From positions 1-61,419 of the IMG/VR virus record IMGVR_UViG_3300036881_000024: DNA of 61,419 nucleotides; one strand, 5' to 3'. Shown here in pieces: positions 38,107-41,756 of the stretch (position 1 is the stretch's first letter; each line of letters begins with the position of its first letter). A model generated the notes under the pieces. That model was not told the origin of the DNA and did no database searches. It saw only the letters and a list, made by a program, of their open reading frames with translations. A program made the position numbers and the translations under genes. This DNA comes from a virus. Taxonomy: Duplodnaviria > Caudoviricetes.

Positions 38107-40626
38107 TCATACTTTTGTCCTCATCATGGAACGCTTGGCATCGATAGCCGCGCTCACCTGCCCTTTGGTCGCCCCCGGAGGCACCGCGAGTCTCAGGATG
38201 CGTGCCAGAGATAATTGCTTTTCTGTCGGCTTGTCGCCGTGCCATCTCGCATCGCGCTTCACCAGCCCGGTAAATTCCTTCGGCACCATCGCGTCTGCGA
38301 TGTTAAATGCGCCAGGTAAATTCTGTGCTGAGTATTCGATCTGCGCTCCATTCAGGTTTCCGCGTATCTGGTACTCATCGCGCAAGTCTTTCGTGATTGT
38401 GACCACGCCGCGATTGACCACCAGCATGTACCCGTCGCCGTTCTTCCGCCAGCCGAATTCAGATAGCTTCGAGACTTCAGGCGGGTAGTGAACCTGAAAC
38501 AGCGCAATGTCTTCTGCTATCGCGTCCAGCTTTGACAGGCTCAGAACTTCGCTCAGGTCGGCGCTTGGAAATTCTTTGGCCACCTTCTCAAACTGTTCCT
38601 TCGCCCGGATAACTGACTTGCCCTTAAGGTCGAGATTCGTCGGCAGTCCCAACAGACTCGGCATCGTTACCAGCGAGTGCTTTGAAGTGTTGTCTACCAC
38701 ATCCATAATCAGCGTGTACTCTTTGCCGTCATCGATCCGGGTTCCCCGTCCGATCATCTGCGTAAAGAGAAGCTGAGACTTCGTGGGCTTTGCCAGCACG
38801 ATGCACTTGATTCCCGGGTCGTCGTATCCCTCTGTCAACACTGCACAGTTACACAGGACCGTCAGGGCGTTCTCTCTGTGCCGCTGGAGCTTGCGTGCGC
38901 GCTCGGGATCGTCTCCCCAAACTGCCTCGGCTTCAATGGAGCACTGTTTGAACGCCGCCGCGAGGTCGAGGGCGTGCTGAATATCCACAGTGAATACGAC
39001 CGTCTTAAATCCATAGGCGACCCGCATCCATTCCTTAACGATGATTGCGTTGCGCTCTACCGTGTTCACTGCATCCGATAGTTCATCCTCGGCAAAGTCA
39101 CCGGCCCGTGAGTGAACCTTGTCGAGATTCGTTTTGGTTGATACGCGGACGCCGCGAAGATCAACGAGCCACCCGGACTCGATGCCCGAGCGGATACCCA
39201 TGTCGAATACGATCTCATCGAAGAACTGCCTGAGCCCCTGTCCGTCGGAACGGTTGGGCGTTGCCGTCAGGCCCAGCGAAAGTATCTGCGACTCTCCCGG
39301 TCTAAGGAGGCCGAAGTATTCAAGCACGTTCCGCCACTGAGCGCCGGTCGCATGGTGACAGTTGTGAACTAGGAAGCCGTTGGCGAAATAGGTGTGAGTT
39401 TCTTCGACTTCGAGATTGTAGACATAATCACATTCAGGACGCCCGGAAGATTGTTGAGGATTTGGTCGTTCCTGAACCTCAATACCGTCCACCCTAACCC
39501 ACTCAGAAGCGCATCCTTCTTCCGGTCCTGTTCCTGTCGAGATAGCATCCCGTGAGAAGTCCCTTCGGCCTCCACACCTACCTTGAGGTCGCGGTTCCCA
39601 ACATCCAGCTTGTAGACGGTCGGATAGCCACTGCCACGGCCTTTGCCAGTAAGAACGCCAACCTCCGTTTCCCACCCCAACGCTGCTGCGAGCATCTGCT
39701 GCGGTTTCGTGAGTCCCGTCCCGTTCCCCCCGCGCACTGAGGGCTTGTGTCCCATCGCCCTCAGTGTTGCGGTCATCTTTTCTTTCGATCCCGCTCTCCG
39801 CATGGGATTGTTCGTCTTCATACGAGCCGAACAGTGCTCTAAGTTGGTCCGCGTCATGCGCTCCGAACTGAGACGTGCCACATATGCTACCTTGCAAGAA
39901 TCCGAGCAGTAAGCCCTGCCCTTTTTCGCGTATAGCATCATGCGGTCGTGTGATTGGGTGCAGAGGTCCACGTCTCCAGTGCAGTGAGAACAAGAGACGA
40001 TCATCGCTGGTGAGGTCGATTGCATTGATCCATCCTTTCTGTGTATAAATCGGATGTTCCGCCGTGCAAGTGAAGTTGCCGTCTGCGGTTTTCACCAGCA
40101 CTAAATATTCAGGCATCGGGTTCCTGTATATTCGAGAAACCCCGCGTTTTTCAATGGTCCCATTGGACTCATCATACGACAATACAGCTTCCCCAATGCG
40201 GATAGTTTCTATAGGTTTCCCGTCGATCAATGTGCCTGCTGGGAAGCACTCATCAGAGACAACGCAATCGAAGTCGTCGCGGTGAAACTTCAATATGCGC
40301 TTCGATCTTGCCCGTCCGAGCGTGGGCACGGACGCCACGATGAATGTGTCCATCGGGCTTGAGGTTCGCTCCGCCTTTTCGACGCCAACCATCAGGTCCG
40401 GGTTCCAGCGTTGCAGTTTATCCGCCGCCTGGTTAGCCAACTCCTCGCGGTGTACAAGAACCATGATCTTCTTGCGGAAGTTCATCTGGTCCCTGAGCGC
40501 CGCGAAGAGAACTGCTTTGCCGAGTCCGGTAGCCAACACGCCAAGCTGCCGCGTAATTCCCGCATCATATCTCTCTCTAACTCGCTGGAAGAATTCGCGC
40601 TGGTAGTCCCGAAGTTGAAGGGTCAT
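38107..40626 (-). CDS. Superfamily 2 DEAD/DEAH (ResIII/IRC3-like) helicase, intein-containing
   Basis: LRDYQ, ATGLGKA, SDE|CHH (motif II split by the intein), LTATPNR, LTEGYD, QMIGRGTR. Confidence 0.9.
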   Translation of the reverse strand: MTLQLRDYQREFFQRVRERYDAGITRQLGVLATGLGKAVLFAALRDQMNFRKKIMVLVHREELANQAADKLQRWNPDLMVGVEKAERTSSPMDTFIVASVPTLGRARSKRILKFHRDDFDCVVSDECFPAGTLIDGKPIETIRIGEAVLSYDESNGTIEKRGVSRIYRNPMPEYLVLVKTADGNFTCTAEHPIYTQKGWINAIDLTSDDRLLFSLHWRRGPLHPITRPHDAIREKGQGLLLGFLQGSICGTSQFGAHDADQLRALFGSYEDEQSHAESGIERKDDRNTEGDGTQALSARGERDGTHETAADARSSVGVGNGGWRSYWQRPWQWLSDRLQAGCWEPRPQGRCGGRRDFSRDAISTGTGPEEGCASEWVRVDGIEVQERPNPQQSSGRPECDYVYNLEVEETHTYFANGFLVHNCHHATGAQWRNVLEYFGLLRPGESQILSLGLTATPNRSDGQGLRQFFDEIVFDMGIRSGIESGWLVDLRGVRVSTKTNLDKVHSRAGDFAEDELSDAVNTVERNAIIVKEWMRVAYGFKTVVFTVDIQHALDLAAAFKQCSIEAEAVWGDDPERARKLQRHRENALTVLCNCAVLTEGYDDPGIKCIVLAKPTKSQLLFTQMIGRGTRIDDGKEYTLIMDVVDNTSKHSLVTMPSLLGLPTNLDLKGKSVIRAKEQFEKVAKEFPSADLSEVLSLSKLDAIAEDIALFQVHYPPEVSKLSEFGWRKNGDGYMLVVNRGVVTITKDLRDEYQIRGNLNGAQIEYSAQNLPGAFNIADAMVPKEFTGLVKRDARWHGDKPTEKQLSLARILRLAVPPGATKGQVSAAIDAKRSMMRTKV
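39361..40248 (-). mobile_element. Intein (296 aa) inserted in helicase motif II
   Basis: CFPAGTLI...TCTAEHPIYT...VYNLEVEETHTYFANGFLVHN followed by +1 Cys. Confidence 0.95.
39369..40025 (-). CDS. Nested out-of-frame DUF559/Vsr-like endonuclease inside the intein
   Basis: CSHC...YCSDSC zinc finger, NNPM..GSKEKM NUMOD-like motif, YKLDVG...VGVEAEGTSH...QDRKKDALLSGLGWTVLRFRN; AAGGATGGA upstream of the ATG. Confidence 0.85.
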   Translation of the reverse strand: MQSTSPAMIVSCSHCTGDVDLCTQSHDRMMLYAKKGRAYCSDSCKVAYVARLSSERMTRTNLEHCSARMKTNNPMRRAGSKEKMTATLRAMGHKPSVRGGNGTGLTKPQQMLAAALGWETEVGVLTGKGRGSGYPTVYKLDVGNRDLKVGVEAEGTSHGMLSRQEQDRKKDALLSGLGWTVLRFRNDQILNNLPGVLNVIMSTISKSKKLTPISPTAS

Positions 40627-40832
40627 GATTTCCTGAATGAATCCTGCTCTGTGCAAGTGGCCCAATGCGCGACCGCCGCATCCCCGCCGCGCTGCATCGG
40701 GTTCATCGGAATGTTCTTGCCGTTGGGAGTCTCCCACCATTCGATAGACTCCCCGCAGCCCTTGCACTCGGCATGGTCCTTGAACTTGTAGCCGCGCGCC
40801 GTCATTTCGTCTAGCGTTTTCGGAAATGCCAT
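40623..40832 (-). CDS. Small zinc-binding protein
   Basis: CKGCGESIEWWETPNGKNIPM...HWATC. Confidence 0.7.
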   Translation of the reverse strand: MAFPKTLDEMTARGYKFKDHAECKGCGESIEWWETPNGKNIPMNPMQRGGDAAVAHWATCTEQDSFRKS

Positions 40833-40970
40833 ACTACTCCCACCTTGTATAGCGGTCATGTTTGCTCGCCTGACTGCAAAGCCATTCCCCGCAGCGATGA
40901 ACGAATCGCCAGAATCGGGTACGGCTTACCCACACCACCGAGTATCCGAGGGCATCAACTTGGTCGTCGC

Positions 40971-41756
40971 TCACCTGTCCACCGGCACCTTTCTCTCATT
41001 CACCGTGATTGCCCCGGCACCGACGAGTTGTTCCGCTGTCCGATGCATCGACCGCACCAGCGCCCCGATTTCCTTGTCCTTCGGTGTCAGGAACTCCGGC
41101 TTGAGCTTGGTCACATCGTTCAGCACCCACTCCCACACCGACCGGAAGCTGACGCCCTGGACCTGGGGAACGGTTGACGGCAGTTCCACGGCCGGCGCTT
41201 CGACGGTCACCGCCTCTTCGAGAATGGCCTCCGCGACCTCAGTTTTGCCCTCTGCCGCGGCGAGACGGGCTTCCTCGATCAACCGGGCCTCTTCCCGCTG
41301 GCGAGCCCCTTCCTGAGCCCTCTGAGCGGCTTCGCGGCGCTTGCGCTCCTCTTCGGCGGCAAACTGCTCGCGCTCACCTTTGAGCCGCTTCGTCTCGGCC
41401 TGTATCGGCGTCAGGTAGGAGCTGCGGATTGCCGTCGCTGCCCGGTGCGCCGCGAACAGCTTCTTGATGAACGGCTCCATGAGTTCGTTGATCTCATCTT
41501 CGGTCGAGTTGAGCGCCTTGACCTGCTCCGACGCTTTCATGAACGCATCGGGATCGGAGACGGTGATCTCGCCACGGGGTCCGCGCTGGAATACGACGAT
41601 GGCCTTTGACTGCGTGACAAGAGCCTCGCTCATGGCGACGTTCGACTCCATCTCTGGCAGGTTGGCGAAGAATTGCTCAAGGGTGGTTTTCAGGTCCGCT
41701 TGCAGGTTGGTCACCTGAGTTGCGAGTGTCAGTTCGGTAGTAGCCACGGGTGTCAT
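40971..41756 (-). CDS. Coiled-coil protein of the recombination module
   Basis: Long E/R/A coil, then GVSFRSVWEW...KLKPEFL. Confidence 0.6.
   Translation of the reverse strand: MTPVATTELTLATQVTNLQADLKTTLEQFFANLPEMESNVAMSEALVTQSKAIVVFQRGPRGEITVSDPDAFMKASEQVKALNSTEDEINELMEPFIKKLFAAHRAATAIRSSYLTPIQAETKRLKGEREQFAAEEERKRREAAQRAQEGARQREEARLIEEARLAAAEGKTEVAEAILEEAVTVEAPAVELPSTVPQVQGVSFRSVWEWVLNDVTKLKPEFLTPKDKEIGALVRSMHRTAEQLVGAGAITVNERKVPVDR

What the first reader, a model, noticed from the sequence alone, without database searches (positions are those of the whole stretch)
39361..40248. Intein whose endonuclease is a separate gene overprinted in another reading frame
Seen: the helicase intein has normal splicing blocks (CFPAGT, TAEHP, YNLEV...VHN/C), but the ~170 codons between them read as unstructured filler in the intein frame. 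The same DNA in a shifted frame on the same strand (39369..40025) encodes a 218-aa protein. That protein has a Cys zinc finger, a NUMOD-like NNPM motif and a DUF559/Vsr-type nuclease (LDVG...VEAEG.SH...QD..KD..L...GW.VLRF.N), with its own SD-like AAGGATGGA. Both frames are stop-free over about 650 nt, and the nested ORF also overlaps blocks F/G. Established: intein homing endonucleases are normally in-frame domains. Inference: this is a distinct mobile-element design in which the endonuclease is translated independently (or via a frameshift) while the intein keeps the host frame open and splices the filler out.
Basis: partly seen in the sequence, partly recalled or inferred. Interest (0 to 1): 0.92.

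Follow-up and report, generated by a model that had tools for sequence, protein, structure and literature searches.

The report
Helicase intein with overprinted homing endonuclease
A phage helicase gene carries a self-splicing intein whose middle also encodes, one base out of step, a complete DNA-cutting "homing" enzyme; the double coding is real and kept by selection in over a hundred other sequences, but this kind of layout was already described in recent preprints.

Summary
Observation confirmed. The helicase ORF (38107..40767, minus strand) carries a 296-codon intein (39361..40248) in motif II (DE|CH). The +1 frame holds a 218-aa ORF (39369..40025) that matches Pfam DUF559 (E 2.6e-11).

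It is not an assembly error. Contigs of 4 runs show no indels. In 120 of 122 whole related loci the host frame is stop-free across the nested ORF, against 0.25 expected from synonymous shuffles.

Selection acts on the nested frame. Mean pairwise amino-acid identity is 0.40 (nested), 0.21 (host) and 0.22 (unread third frame). In 9 close pairs the middle has 393 changes that are silent only in the nested frame and 84 silent only in the host frame.

AlphaFold folds the nested protein well (pLDDT 88.8). Its best fold match is the homing endonuclease I-Bth0305I. The host frame gives two Hint lobes joined by about 145 disordered residues.

Expression, splicing and cleavage are inferred.

Out-of-frame intein endonucleases are in 2025-26 preprints, but I found no report of this same-strand DUF559 helicase family. 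This scan has noted the family before on other DNA: 77 notes, at least 60 genomes.

The parts
38107..40767 (-). Longest helicase ORF (886 aa), superfamily-2 ResIII/Helicase_C helicase interrupted by the intein. The likely true start is the ATG at 40626 (MTLQLRDYQ...), which overlaps the stop of the upstream 78-aa ORF as ATGA.
   Evidence: The start is inferred from intein-less relatives that begin near this motif.
40249..40626 (-). N-extein, ending ...VVSDE (first half of helicase motif II)
39361..40248 (-). Intein, 296 codons in the helicase frame: Cys1 (CFPAGT...) to ...LVHN
   Evidence: Pfam Intein_splicing 38.4 bits, PT-HINT; NCBIfam intein_Cterm; invariant C1, T62, H65, N296 and nearly invariant H295
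39970..40248 (-). Hint N-terminal lobe (intein residues 1-93, blocks A and B)
   Evidence: AlphaFold pLDDT 95-98, beta strands
39517..39969 (-). Host-frame 'filler' (intein residues about 94-244). It is kept stop-free but is not conserved as protein and is predicted disordered.
   Evidence: pLDDT about 45, no secondary structure; host-frame identity equals that of the unread frame; 0 stops against 8.8 expected
39361..39516 (-). Hint C-terminal lobe (intein residues about 245-296, blocks F and G, terminal HN)
39369..40025 (-). Nested +1-frame ORF, 218 aa plus stop: putative homing endonuclease with a Cys4 N-terminal module, a helical middle and a DUF559/Vsr-like nuclease
40033..40037 (-). Shine-Dalgarno-like AAGGA, 7 nt upstream of the nested ATG. 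In the host frame it falls in the K-G-W codons after block B.
39894..40001 (-). Nested protein residues 9-44: four conserved Cys (C12, C15, C40, C44), a putative zinc-binding module
   Evidence: Zinc binding is inferred.
39405..39716 (-). Nested protein residues 104-207: DUF559/Vsr-like nuclease domain (invariant D141, G155, S157, H158, D167, GW..R..N)
38107..39360 (-). C-extein, starting with the +1 Cys (39358..39360) of CHHATG. Splicing would restore ...SDE-CHH... (DECH box).

Best explanation
This is a composite mobile element made of two overlapping genes.

(1) A class-1 intein (Cys1, block B TxxH, terminal His-Asn, +1 Cys) sits in helicase motif II between DE and CH. It is translated as part of the helicase. 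Its two Hint lobes are joined by a disordered loop of about 145 residues, and it splices itself out to restore the DECH helicase.

(2) A homing endonuclease gene is written over the same DNA in the +1 frame. Its product has a Cys4 module, a helical region and a DUF559/Vsr-like nuclease. It is translated on its own from an internal ATG with a Shine-Dalgarno-like site, on the helicase mRNA. It cuts intein-less helicase alleles, and repair copies the whole element in.

Selection acts on the endonuclease frame in the middle. On the host frame it acts only to keep it free of stops. At the ends both readings matter: the first ~19 nested codons lie over the Hint N lobe and the last ~48 over the Hint C lobe.

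Shown: the ORFs, frames, folds, conservation and stop avoidance. Inferred: translation start, splicing, cleavage and homing.
For: Profiles and folds.
- The nested ORF matches DUF559 (E 2.6e-11) and PDB 3hrl (E 7e-12).
- Its AlphaFold model has pLDDT 88.8. The top Foldseek hits are 3r3p (I-Bth0305I homing endonuclease, prob 1.00), 3hrl and Vsr 1cw0/1vsr.
- The host frame gives Hint lobes at pLDDT above 90 and a middle at about 45.

Conservation of the layout.
- 40 of 40 phage records with a tblastn hit cover at least 80% of the query. The 30 listed rows lie under helicase-type CDSs.
- The +1 offset was checked in 3 of these.
- 419 relatives were found in viral contigs and 105 in genome contigs; the best 80 of each were kept.
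- Of 122 whole distinct loci, 120 have the host frame open across the nested ORF, against 0.25 expected. The third frame is open in 0 of 122.

Selection.
- Amino-acid identity is 0.396 (nested), 0.210 (host) and 0.215 (third frame).
- Nucleotide identity by nested codon position is 0.516, 0.562 and 0.369.
- 393 changes are silent only in the nested frame and 84 only in the host frame.

Start signal.
- A start codon precedes the first CxxC in 119 of 121 spanning loci.
- An SD core lies upstream of 35.8% of candidate starts, against 21.6% and 19.9% in two controls.

Insertion site. It reads xDE|C in 93 of 94 mapped loci.

Mobility.
- The 3 nearest full-length helicase relatives (51-57% C-extein identity) are intein-less, with contiguous DECH or DEAH.
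- The endonuclease scores more bits per residue than the C-extein in 87 of 88 loci.
- 2 free-standing relatives sit directly upstream of intein-less helicases.
- L007 is a mini-intein that keeps only the 3' remnant of the endonuclease gene.
Against: - There is no direct evidence that either product is made, that the intein splices, or that the nuclease cuts the DECH site.
- The SD signal is modest: 44 of 121 loci have no SD core before any candidate start.
- 2 of 121 loci had no start codon before the first CxxC by my rule.
- No sigma-70-like promoter was found inside the gene. This is neutral for internal initiation on the helicase mRNA.
- At the two ends the substitution counts still favour the nested frame (41:16 and 32:17). 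Host-frame constraint there rests on invariant splicing residues, not on that test.
- The nearest intein-less helicases are only 51-57% identical, so no recent homing event is seen directly.
- The Foldseek E-values are weak (2e-3 at best). The profile match to I-Bth0305I is marginal (E 0.036).
Confidence: 0.8

Rival explanations
1. Programmed frameshifting. Ribosomes shift +1 after block B and back before block F. The endonuclease is then made as an in-frame domain of a canonical bifunctional intein and not as a separate protein.
For: Both frames are open on one strand, so a shifted read-through is physically possible. The nested-frame stop upstream lies 22 codons before the ATG in the window.
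Against: Two precise opposite shifts would be needed in every translation. A start codon lies between the upstream nested-frame stop and the first CxxC in 119 of 121 loci, and in several loci directly after that stop. SD cores are enriched there. Free-standing relatives are ordinary separate genes. I did not search for slippery sites.
Confidence: 0.05
2. The nested ORF is real and conserved but is not, or is no longer, a homing enzyme. It could be a domesticated nuclease serving the phage, or a silent passenger kept only because it overlaps the intein.
For: DUF559 proteins are mostly of unknown function. L137-L167 are ordinary DUF559 genes unrelated to inteins. No cleavage data exist.
Against: Overlap alone cannot explain amino-acid conservation in the filler region, where the host frame is unconstrained. 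The location inside an intein, the sporadic distribution, the free-standing relatives beside the same target gene, and the best fold match to a proven homing endonuclease all fit homing.
Confidence: 0.1
3. Artefact. Two compensating indel errors in the assembly put an in-frame endonuclease out of frame.
For: None found.
Against: No inserted or missing letters appear in contigs of 4 runs over 39200-40400. Two of these runs may be the source; two others cover the stretch only in part. The same +1 offset with both frames open is seen in 120 of 122 distinct loci from independent assemblies, including cultured phages MR14, CP-T1 and K391. No longer fused form was found among longer proteins (weak evidence).
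Confidence: 0.01
4. The insert is a group I or group II intron with an endonuclease ORF, removed at the RNA level and not as protein.
For: Vsr-like endonucleases also live in group I introns (Dassa 2009, passages read).
Against: There is no intron match in Rfam at E<=1 over 39000-40800; the only hit is a chance lncRNA at E 0.87. The host frame is open, and complete Hint blocks with junction residues are present.
Confidence: 0.01

Closest known systems
Non-canonical actinobacteriophage inteins (Gosselin, Arsenault and Gogarten, bioRxiv 10.1101/2025.01.02.630785). I read the abstract, sections 8 and 15, and term passages.
   Same: A contiguous, presumably splicing intein whose homing endonuclease is a separate ORF overlapping the intein. 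The authors explain it as invasion of an intein by a free-standing endonuclease gene. They include a same-strand case (EndoVII-like in 'frame 3') and VSR-like endonucleases.
   Different: Their VSR-like endonucleases are on the antisense strand, and their same-strand case is EndoVII-like. The hosts are terminase, DNA polymerase, minor capsid and thymidylate synthase in actinophages. They call the layouts rare and say the second ORF typically lies outside the splicing domain. Here the DUF559/Vsr-like gene is on the same strand in +1, in helicase motif II, and overlaps both Hint lobes. It is the normal state of a family with 419 relatives in viral contigs.
Cyanobacterial dnaX intein with an out-of-frame LAGLIDADG endonuclease (Phillips, DeSimone and Gogarten, bioRxiv 10.64898/2026.09.14.751524, following Gorbalenya 1998). 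I read the abstract and section 17.
   Same: A broadly distributed intein with the endonuclease in an overlapping frame ('+2ORF'). Selection depends on frame: it is purifying on the endonuclease frame and relaxed on the intein frame. Mini-intein relatives exist.
   Different: The endonuclease family is LAGLIDADG, the host gene is bacterial dnaX, and no free-standing ancestor was found. Here two free-standing relatives lie beside intein-less helicases.
[quoted passage not shown] 2009, PMC2677866). I read the abstract and term passages.
   Same: A Vsr-like putative homing endonuclease lies between the N and C parts of an intein, mainly in phages. The endonuclease 3' end overlaps the downstream intein part by 6-69 bp.
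   Different: There the host gene is broken into two ORFs and the intein is split (trans-splicing). Here the host frame runs unbroken through the endonuclease gene in 120 of 122 loci, so the intein is contiguous.
I-Bth0305I (PDB 3r3p), the 'EDxHD' homing endonuclease of a phage recA group I intron; and DUF559 protein NGO0050 (PDB 3hrl)
   Same: These are the best fold matches of the nested protein's C-terminal domain. 3hrl also matches by sequence profile at E 7e-12.
   Different: I-Bth0305I is intron-encoded and matches only marginally by sequence (E 0.036). The Cys4 and helical N-terminal half of the nested protein has no clear solved relative.
Out-of-frame HNH endonuclease in a phage methylase insertion (ShiLan domain; Arsenault et al. 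2025, PMC11855218). I read the abstract only.
   Same: A hidden endonuclease lies in a shifted frame of an insertion that stays open in the host frame.
   Different: That insertion has no splicing domain and is thought to stay in the protein as a loop. The nuclease is HNH.

Membership tests
Intein (Hint domain, class 1) | N-terminal Cys/Ser nucleophile and block B TxxH | tested here: met
   C1, T62 and H65 are invariant in 40 aligned inteins. The window reads CFPAGT ... TAEHP.
Intein (Hint domain, class 1) | C-terminal His-Asn followed by Cys/Ser/Thr at +1 | tested here: met
   The window reads LVHN|C. Of 94 loci, the junction is HN|C in 81, SN|C in 9, AN|C in 1 and HN|S in 2. One (L003) was mis-assigned by my regex and is VHN|CHH. 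NCBIfam intein_Cterm scores 33.5 bits against a cut-off of 15.6.
Intein (Hint domain, class 1) | Hint fold | tested here: met
   Pfam Intein_splicing scores 38.4 bits against a cut-off of 35.8. AlphaFold gives beta-rich lobes at residues 1-93 and 245-296 with pLDDT above 90. I made no fold search of this model.
Intein (Hint domain, class 1) | In-frame insertion at a conserved site, absent from some homologues | tested here: met
   The site reads xDE|C in 93 of 94 loci. Intein-less relatives have contiguous DECH or DEAH.
Intein (Hint domain, class 1) | Protein splicing activity | not testable with these tools
   Needs an expression assay.
DUF559 / Vsr-like endonuclease (PF04480) | Profile match above the curated cut-off | tested here: met
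   43.8 bits against 20.6, residues 138-204. Nearly all of 110 relatives carry PF04480.
DUF559 / Vsr-like endonuclease (PF04480) | Vsr-type restriction-endonuclease-like fold with conserved acidic and His residues | tested here: met
   The fold hits are 3r3p, 3hrl, 1cw0 and 1vsr. D141, H158 and D167 are invariant and E152 and D154 nearly so. I did not map these one-to-one onto Vsr D51/H69/D97, which are named in Dassa 2009.
EDxHD homing endonucleases (I-Bth0305I type) | Sequence membership and the EDxHD motif | tested here: inconclusive
   It is the best fold hit (prob 1.00, E 2.3e-3), but the profile E-value is only 0.036. The family consensus here reads IEVDGxSH. The motif definition is recalled and was not tested.
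Non-canonical intein with the endonuclease in a separate overlapping ORF | Contiguous open intein frame plus an intact endonuclease ORF in another frame, with purifying selection on the latter | tested here: met
Fractured gene / split intein (Dassa 2009) | Host gene broken into two ORFs, with intein halves on separate polypeptides | tested here: not met
   The host frame is unbroken in the window and in 120 of 122 loci.
Canonical bifunctional intein | Endonuclease domain in the intein's own reading frame | tested here: not met
   The offset is +1 in 120 of 122 loci. The longest nested stop-to-stop ORF is 363 aa, so none is fused. No longer fused protein was found (weak evidence).
NUMOD DNA-binding motifs | Profile match to a NUMOD family | tested here: not met
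   No NUMOD family appears among the Pfam matches at E<=1. The conserved RM..NNPM helix is unclassified.

The most novel reading that the evidence does not exclude
The overlap is not a passing intermediate between a mini-intein and a split or in-frame intein. It is an old, stable design. The endonuclease gene's ends are written over the Hint N and C lobes, so neither partner can be deleted or decay without harming the other. The endonuclease is made at a low level by internal initiation on the helicase mRNA. Together with the free-standing relatives beside intein-less helicases, this family would show the whole route by which a free-standing homing endonuclease captures a mini-intein. It would also be the largest known family of overprinted inteins, and it is unannotated in public phage genomes.
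Probability: 0.45. Interest if true: 0.65.

Novelty: new variant of a known kind. Interest (0 to 1): 0.5.

Why it matters
It gives a large natural data set (over 120 distinct loci here and 419 relatives in viral contigs) for an intein layout that the literature treats as rare. The data set has three states: free-standing relatives next to the same target gene, full composite elements, and mini-inteins that keep only an endonuclease remnant. This makes the 'free-standing endonuclease invades a mini-intein' model of intein origin directly testable.

It also matters for annotation. The four phage records I opened for the element (MR14, CP-T1, K391, 159E43-1b) annotate only the helicase. PHROGs has no family for the nested protein. 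A whole nuclease family is therefore hidden in phage genomes.

The intein with its disordered linker and the site-specific nuclease could both be of use as tools.

Tried and rejected
Sequencing error: rejected.

Intron: rejected. There is no Rfam intron match.

In-frame fused forms: none was found among longer proteins. The tool itself calls this weak evidence.

Internal promoter or terminator: 0 were found in 39200..41000. This says little.

PHROGs: no family matched the nested protein.

Expression: no RNA holder was listed among 21 runs, so nothing can be said on expression.

Joints (39427 to 40160/40164, run X3 only, 21 letters on the short side): these are most likely contigs of other organisms that share only the conserved intein blocks, as the tool warns. 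I did not use them as evidence.

Parts of the stretch without cover in X3 and X4: not used.

My regex for the C-junction missed L089, L091 and L092, where the junction lies outside the search range. One search shows LVHNCHH for L089; L091 and L092 were not printed. The regex also mis-assigned L003, which is VHN|CHH.

The N-junction was mapped by BLASTP in only 95 of 121 spanning loci. The other 26 are mostly SNF2-type hosts with divergent block A.

Rows dropped before the count: 2 loci cut by contig ends (L021, L067) and 4 weak ordinary DUF559 hits (L140, L142, L143, L161). L137-L167 in general match only the C-terminal domain and are ordinary DUF559 genes.

I did not read the supplementary tables of Gosselin et al. 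because supplements are closed. They may list cases like this one. My claim that the same-strand DUF559 helicase family is not in print therefore rests on searches and on the sections I read.
Full report
WHAT IS THERE

The window is a complete-looking 61.4-kb virus record. On the minus strand, ORF 38107..40767 (886 aa) is a superfamily-2 helicase. It matches Pfam ResIII (E 3.2e-21) and Helicase_C (E 4.8e-6). Its likely start is the ATG at 40626 (MTLQLRDYQ). That start overlaps the stop of the upstream 78-aa ORF as ATGA. The intein-less relatives begin near this motif.

Between ...VVSDE and CHHATG... lies a 296-codon insert, 39361..40248, with the marks of a class-1 intein:
- Cys1 (CFPAGT), block B TAEHP, terminal VHN, and a +1 Cys.
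- Pfam Intein_splicing 38.4 bits (cut-off 35.8) and PT-HINT.
- NCBIfam intein_Cterm 33.5 bits (cut-off 15.6).

The +1 frame of the same strand holds an ORF of 218 codons, 39369..40025. It matches Pfam DUF559 above the cut-off (43.8 against 20.6 bits, E 2.6e-11, residues 138-204). Its ATG is preceded by AAGGA with 7 nt between. Its stop lies 8 nt before the last intein codon. The ORF is therefore wholly inside the intein and overlaps blocks F and G.

Two labels are not confirmed as named. 'NUMOD-like' has no profile match. The zinc finger is inferred from four conserved Cys.

IS IT AN ERROR OR CHANCE?

Contigs of four public runs laid on 39200..40400 show no inserted or missing letters. Two of those runs may be the source of the window. 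The other two cover the stretch only in part.

The layout also recurs widely. A tblastn search of the nested protein against 50,697 phage records found 40 records (37 Vibrio, 2 Corynebacterium, 1 Pseudomonas). All 40 cover at least 80% of the query at 44-47% identity. The 30 listed rows lie under CDSs annotated as helicase or similar. I opened three of them (MR14, CP-T1, K391). In all three the match is +1 relative to the annotated helicase CDS, and both frames are open.

A protein search found 110 relatives, nearly all carrying PF04480. With an alignment of 35 of them (A1) I scanned two collections:
- Viral contigs: 419 relatives, best 80 kept.
- One genome per prokaryotic species: 105 relatives, 80 kept.

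In a script, 139 loci, the window included, matched at least 100 residues of the query. These gave 128 distinct nested ORFs. I set aside 2 loci cut by contig ends and 4 weak ordinary DUF559 hits. Of the remaining 122 loci, 120 have the frame one base upstream (the host frame) free of stops across the whole nested ORF. In these it forms a long ORF, more than 650 aa wherever the locus holds the whole gene.

Shuffling synonymous codons within each nested ORF (300 shuffles per locus) predicts 9.4 host-frame stops per locus on average and 0.25 open loci in all. For the window itself, 8.8 stops are expected, 0 are seen, and 0 of 300 shuffles are open. The third frame is open in 0 of 122 loci, with a mean of 15.4 stops. 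Avoidance of stops in the host frame is therefore a selected property.

WHICH FRAME IS UNDER SELECTION?

In an alignment of 120 loci, read in all three frames over the same columns:
- Mean pairwise amino-acid identity is 0.396 in the nested frame, 0.210 in the host frame and 0.215 in the unread third frame.
- Nucleotide identity by nested codon position is 0.516, 0.562 and 0.369.
- Nested position 3 (host position 1) is thus the freest. Host position 3 (nested position 2) is the most conserved.
- Only in the last 18 nested codons does the host frame draw level (0.334 against 0.323).

In 9 independent close pairs (out of 24 candidate pairs at 70-99% nucleotide identity), I counted changes that are silent in only one of the two frames:

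| Region | Silent only in nested frame | Silent only in host frame |
|---|---|---|
| Middle | 393 | 84 |
| 3' overlap with the Hint C lobe | 41 | 16 |
| 5' overlap | 32 | 17 |

At the ends the ratio falls but does not invert. Host-frame constraint there is better seen in the conserved splicing residues: C1, T62, H65, V276 and N296 invariant, Y277, N278 and H295 nearly so.

WHAT THE TWO PRODUCTS LOOK LIKE

With alignment A1, AlphaFold folds the nested protein at mean pLDDT 88.8. The model has a small beta-hairpin module around the four Cys, long helices, and then an alpha/beta domain at residues 107-209. The best Foldseek matches in the PDB are:
- The catalytic domain of homing endonuclease I-Bth0305I (3r3p, prob 1.00, E 2.3e-3, TM 0.60 on the target).
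- The DUF559 protein 3hrl.
- Vsr (1cw0, 1vsr).

A profile search of PDB sequences gives 3hrl at E 7e-12 and 3r3p at E 0.036.

The host-frame intein was folded with 40 homologous inteins (A2). Residues 1-93 and about 245-296 form confident beta-rich lobes (pLDDT above 90). Residues 96-240 have pLDDT about 45 and no secondary structure. In the helicase frame the element is thus a mini-intein with a disordered linker of about 145 residues. The first ~19 nested codons lie over the end of the N lobe and the last ~48 over the C lobe. The family-wide tail MSTISK of the nested protein is the +1 reading of block F, VYNxEVE.

HOW IT IS LIKELY EXPRESSED

A start codon lies between the upstream nested-frame stop and the first CxxC in 119 of 121 spanning loci; it is ATG in 109. 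An SD core (GGAG, GAGG, AGGA or AAGG at -18..-4) precedes 35.8% of those starts. The controls give 21.6% for all positions and 19.9% for internal start-type codons. 77 of 121 loci have at least one such start.

No sigma-70-like promoter or terminator was found inside the gene. The simplest reading is internal initiation on the helicase mRNA. This is inferred. Double programmed frameshifting is not excluded but is unparsimonious.

MOBILITY

The insertion site reads xDE|C in 93 of 94 loci where both junctions could be mapped. This is helicase motif II, which must be restored for activity (established knowledge of DExH helicases).

Hosts differ widely. They include ResIII-type phage helicases and SNF2-type or methylase-fused proteins in bacterial MAGs whose host-frame ORFs are 1,442-1,810 aa as held and mostly run off the locus ends.

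The nearest relatives of the window's C-extein in viral contigs are 51-57% identical. All three that are full length are intein-less, with contiguous IQDECHIG or IQDEAHIG. Phage Tunturi_3 also has an intein-less 540-aa helicase.

Between the window and 88 other loci, median identity is 45.0% for the nested protein, 38.2% for the Hint N lobe, 29.9% for the C-extein and 31.9% for the N-extein. The exteins gave no hit in 21 and 26 loci respectively. The nested protein scores more bits per residue than the C-extein in 87 of 88 loci. This pattern fits horizontal spread, but I built no tree.

The two loci without an open host frame, L045 and L065, are informative. There the endonuclease is a free-standing gene. 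It lacks the MSTISK tail and has 21 and 29 host-frame stops, as many as the shuffles predict. It lies directly upstream of an intein-less ResIII helicase with intact DECH or DEAH, and in L065 its 3' end overlaps the helicase start codon by about 35 nt.

L007 shows the opposite end of the cycle. It is a mini-intein that keeps only about 48 codons of the endonuclease 3' end in the +1 frame, exactly the part that overlaps the Hint C lobe.

COMPARISON WITH WHAT IS KNOWN

Canonical inteins carry the endonuclease in frame; that is not the case here.

Dassa et al. 2009 described Vsr-like free-standing endonuclease genes between the halves of split inteins. The endonuclease 3' end overlaps the C-intein by 6-69 bp (passages). 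Here the host gene is not broken.

Gosselin, Arsenault and Gogarten (2025 preprint; I read the abstract and sections 8 and 15) report actinophage inteins with endonucleases in separate ORFs. These are antisense LAGLIDADG, antisense VSR-like, and a same-strand 'frame 3' EndoVII-like type. The hosts are terminase, DNA polymerase, minor capsid and thymidylate synthase. They call the layouts rare.

Phillips et al. (2026 preprint; abstract and section 17) show frame-dependent selection for a '+2ORF' LAGLIDADG endonuclease in the cyanobacterial dnaX intein.

The kind of layout is therefore known. My searches were made, 'fractured genes' + 'split inteins', and 'intein' + 'DUF559' (whose one hit is a Thermosynechococcus genome paper I did not open). 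Neither they nor the sections I read turned up a same-strand +1 DUF559/Vsr-like endonuclease in a helicase motif II intein, the extension of dual coding into both Hint lobes, or the size of this family. Supplements were closed and may hold more.

This scan has met the same family before on other DNA: 77 notes in at least 60 genomes. The eight notes shown reach the same reading. I had reached mine before that call and tested it independently here.

VERDICT

I class it as a new variant of a known kind. Interest is moderate. It is no longer a surprise in principle, but it is a large, unannotated and well-structured family that makes the origin of bifunctional and split inteins testable.

Noticed in passing
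L007:1056-3293 (viral contig locus): This helicase carries two inteins. One is an in-frame LAGLIDADG-type intein in the P-loop region. The other is a mini-intein in motif II that keeps only about 48 codons of the DUF559 endonuclease 3' end in the +1 frame (63% identical to the window).
   Followed up: partly
L045:2417-4706 and L065:2498-4766: Free-standing relatives of the nested endonuclease lie directly upstream of intein-less ResIII helicases with intact DECH or DEAH. In L065 the endonuclease 3' end overlaps the helicase start by about 35 nt.
   Followed up: partly
L109, L117, L120 (bacterial MAG contigs): The same intein plus +1 endonuclease sits in very large SNF2-type helicases (host-frame ORFs 1,442-1,810 aa as held, L109 and L120 cut by the locus ends). 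L117 is fused to a DNA methyltransferase domain (DUF6094/N6_Mtase). The element is thus not confined to phage ResIII helicases.
   Followed up: partly
L042:802-5313: This host helicase has a second, upstream intein with Hom_end_hint and LAGLIDADG_3 matches, in addition to the DUF559-bearing one.
   Followed up: no
window 40623-40626: The likely helicase start ATG (40626) overlaps the stop of the upstream 78-aa Cys-rich ORF (40623..40859, minus strand) as ATGA. This suggests translational coupling.
   Followed up: no
window 39356-39427 and 40160-40186 (run X3): Very deep contigs (depth 75-560) of one permafrost run match only the conserved intein end blocks, and two of them join 39427 to 40160/40164. 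They may come from an abundant relative with a shorter intein or from unrelated organisms. Only 21 letters lie on the short side.
   Followed up: no
L002 (MR14), L003 (CP-T1), L004 (K391), L169 (159E43-1b): The public phage records annotate only the helicase CDS over this region, and the nested endonuclease ORF is not annotated. PHROGs v4 has no family for it.
   Followed up: yes
L089, L091, L092 (Cyanobacteriota MAG contigs): The nested frame stays open well past the intein end (327 aa from stop to stop), unlike the usual stop within block F/G.
   Followed up: no
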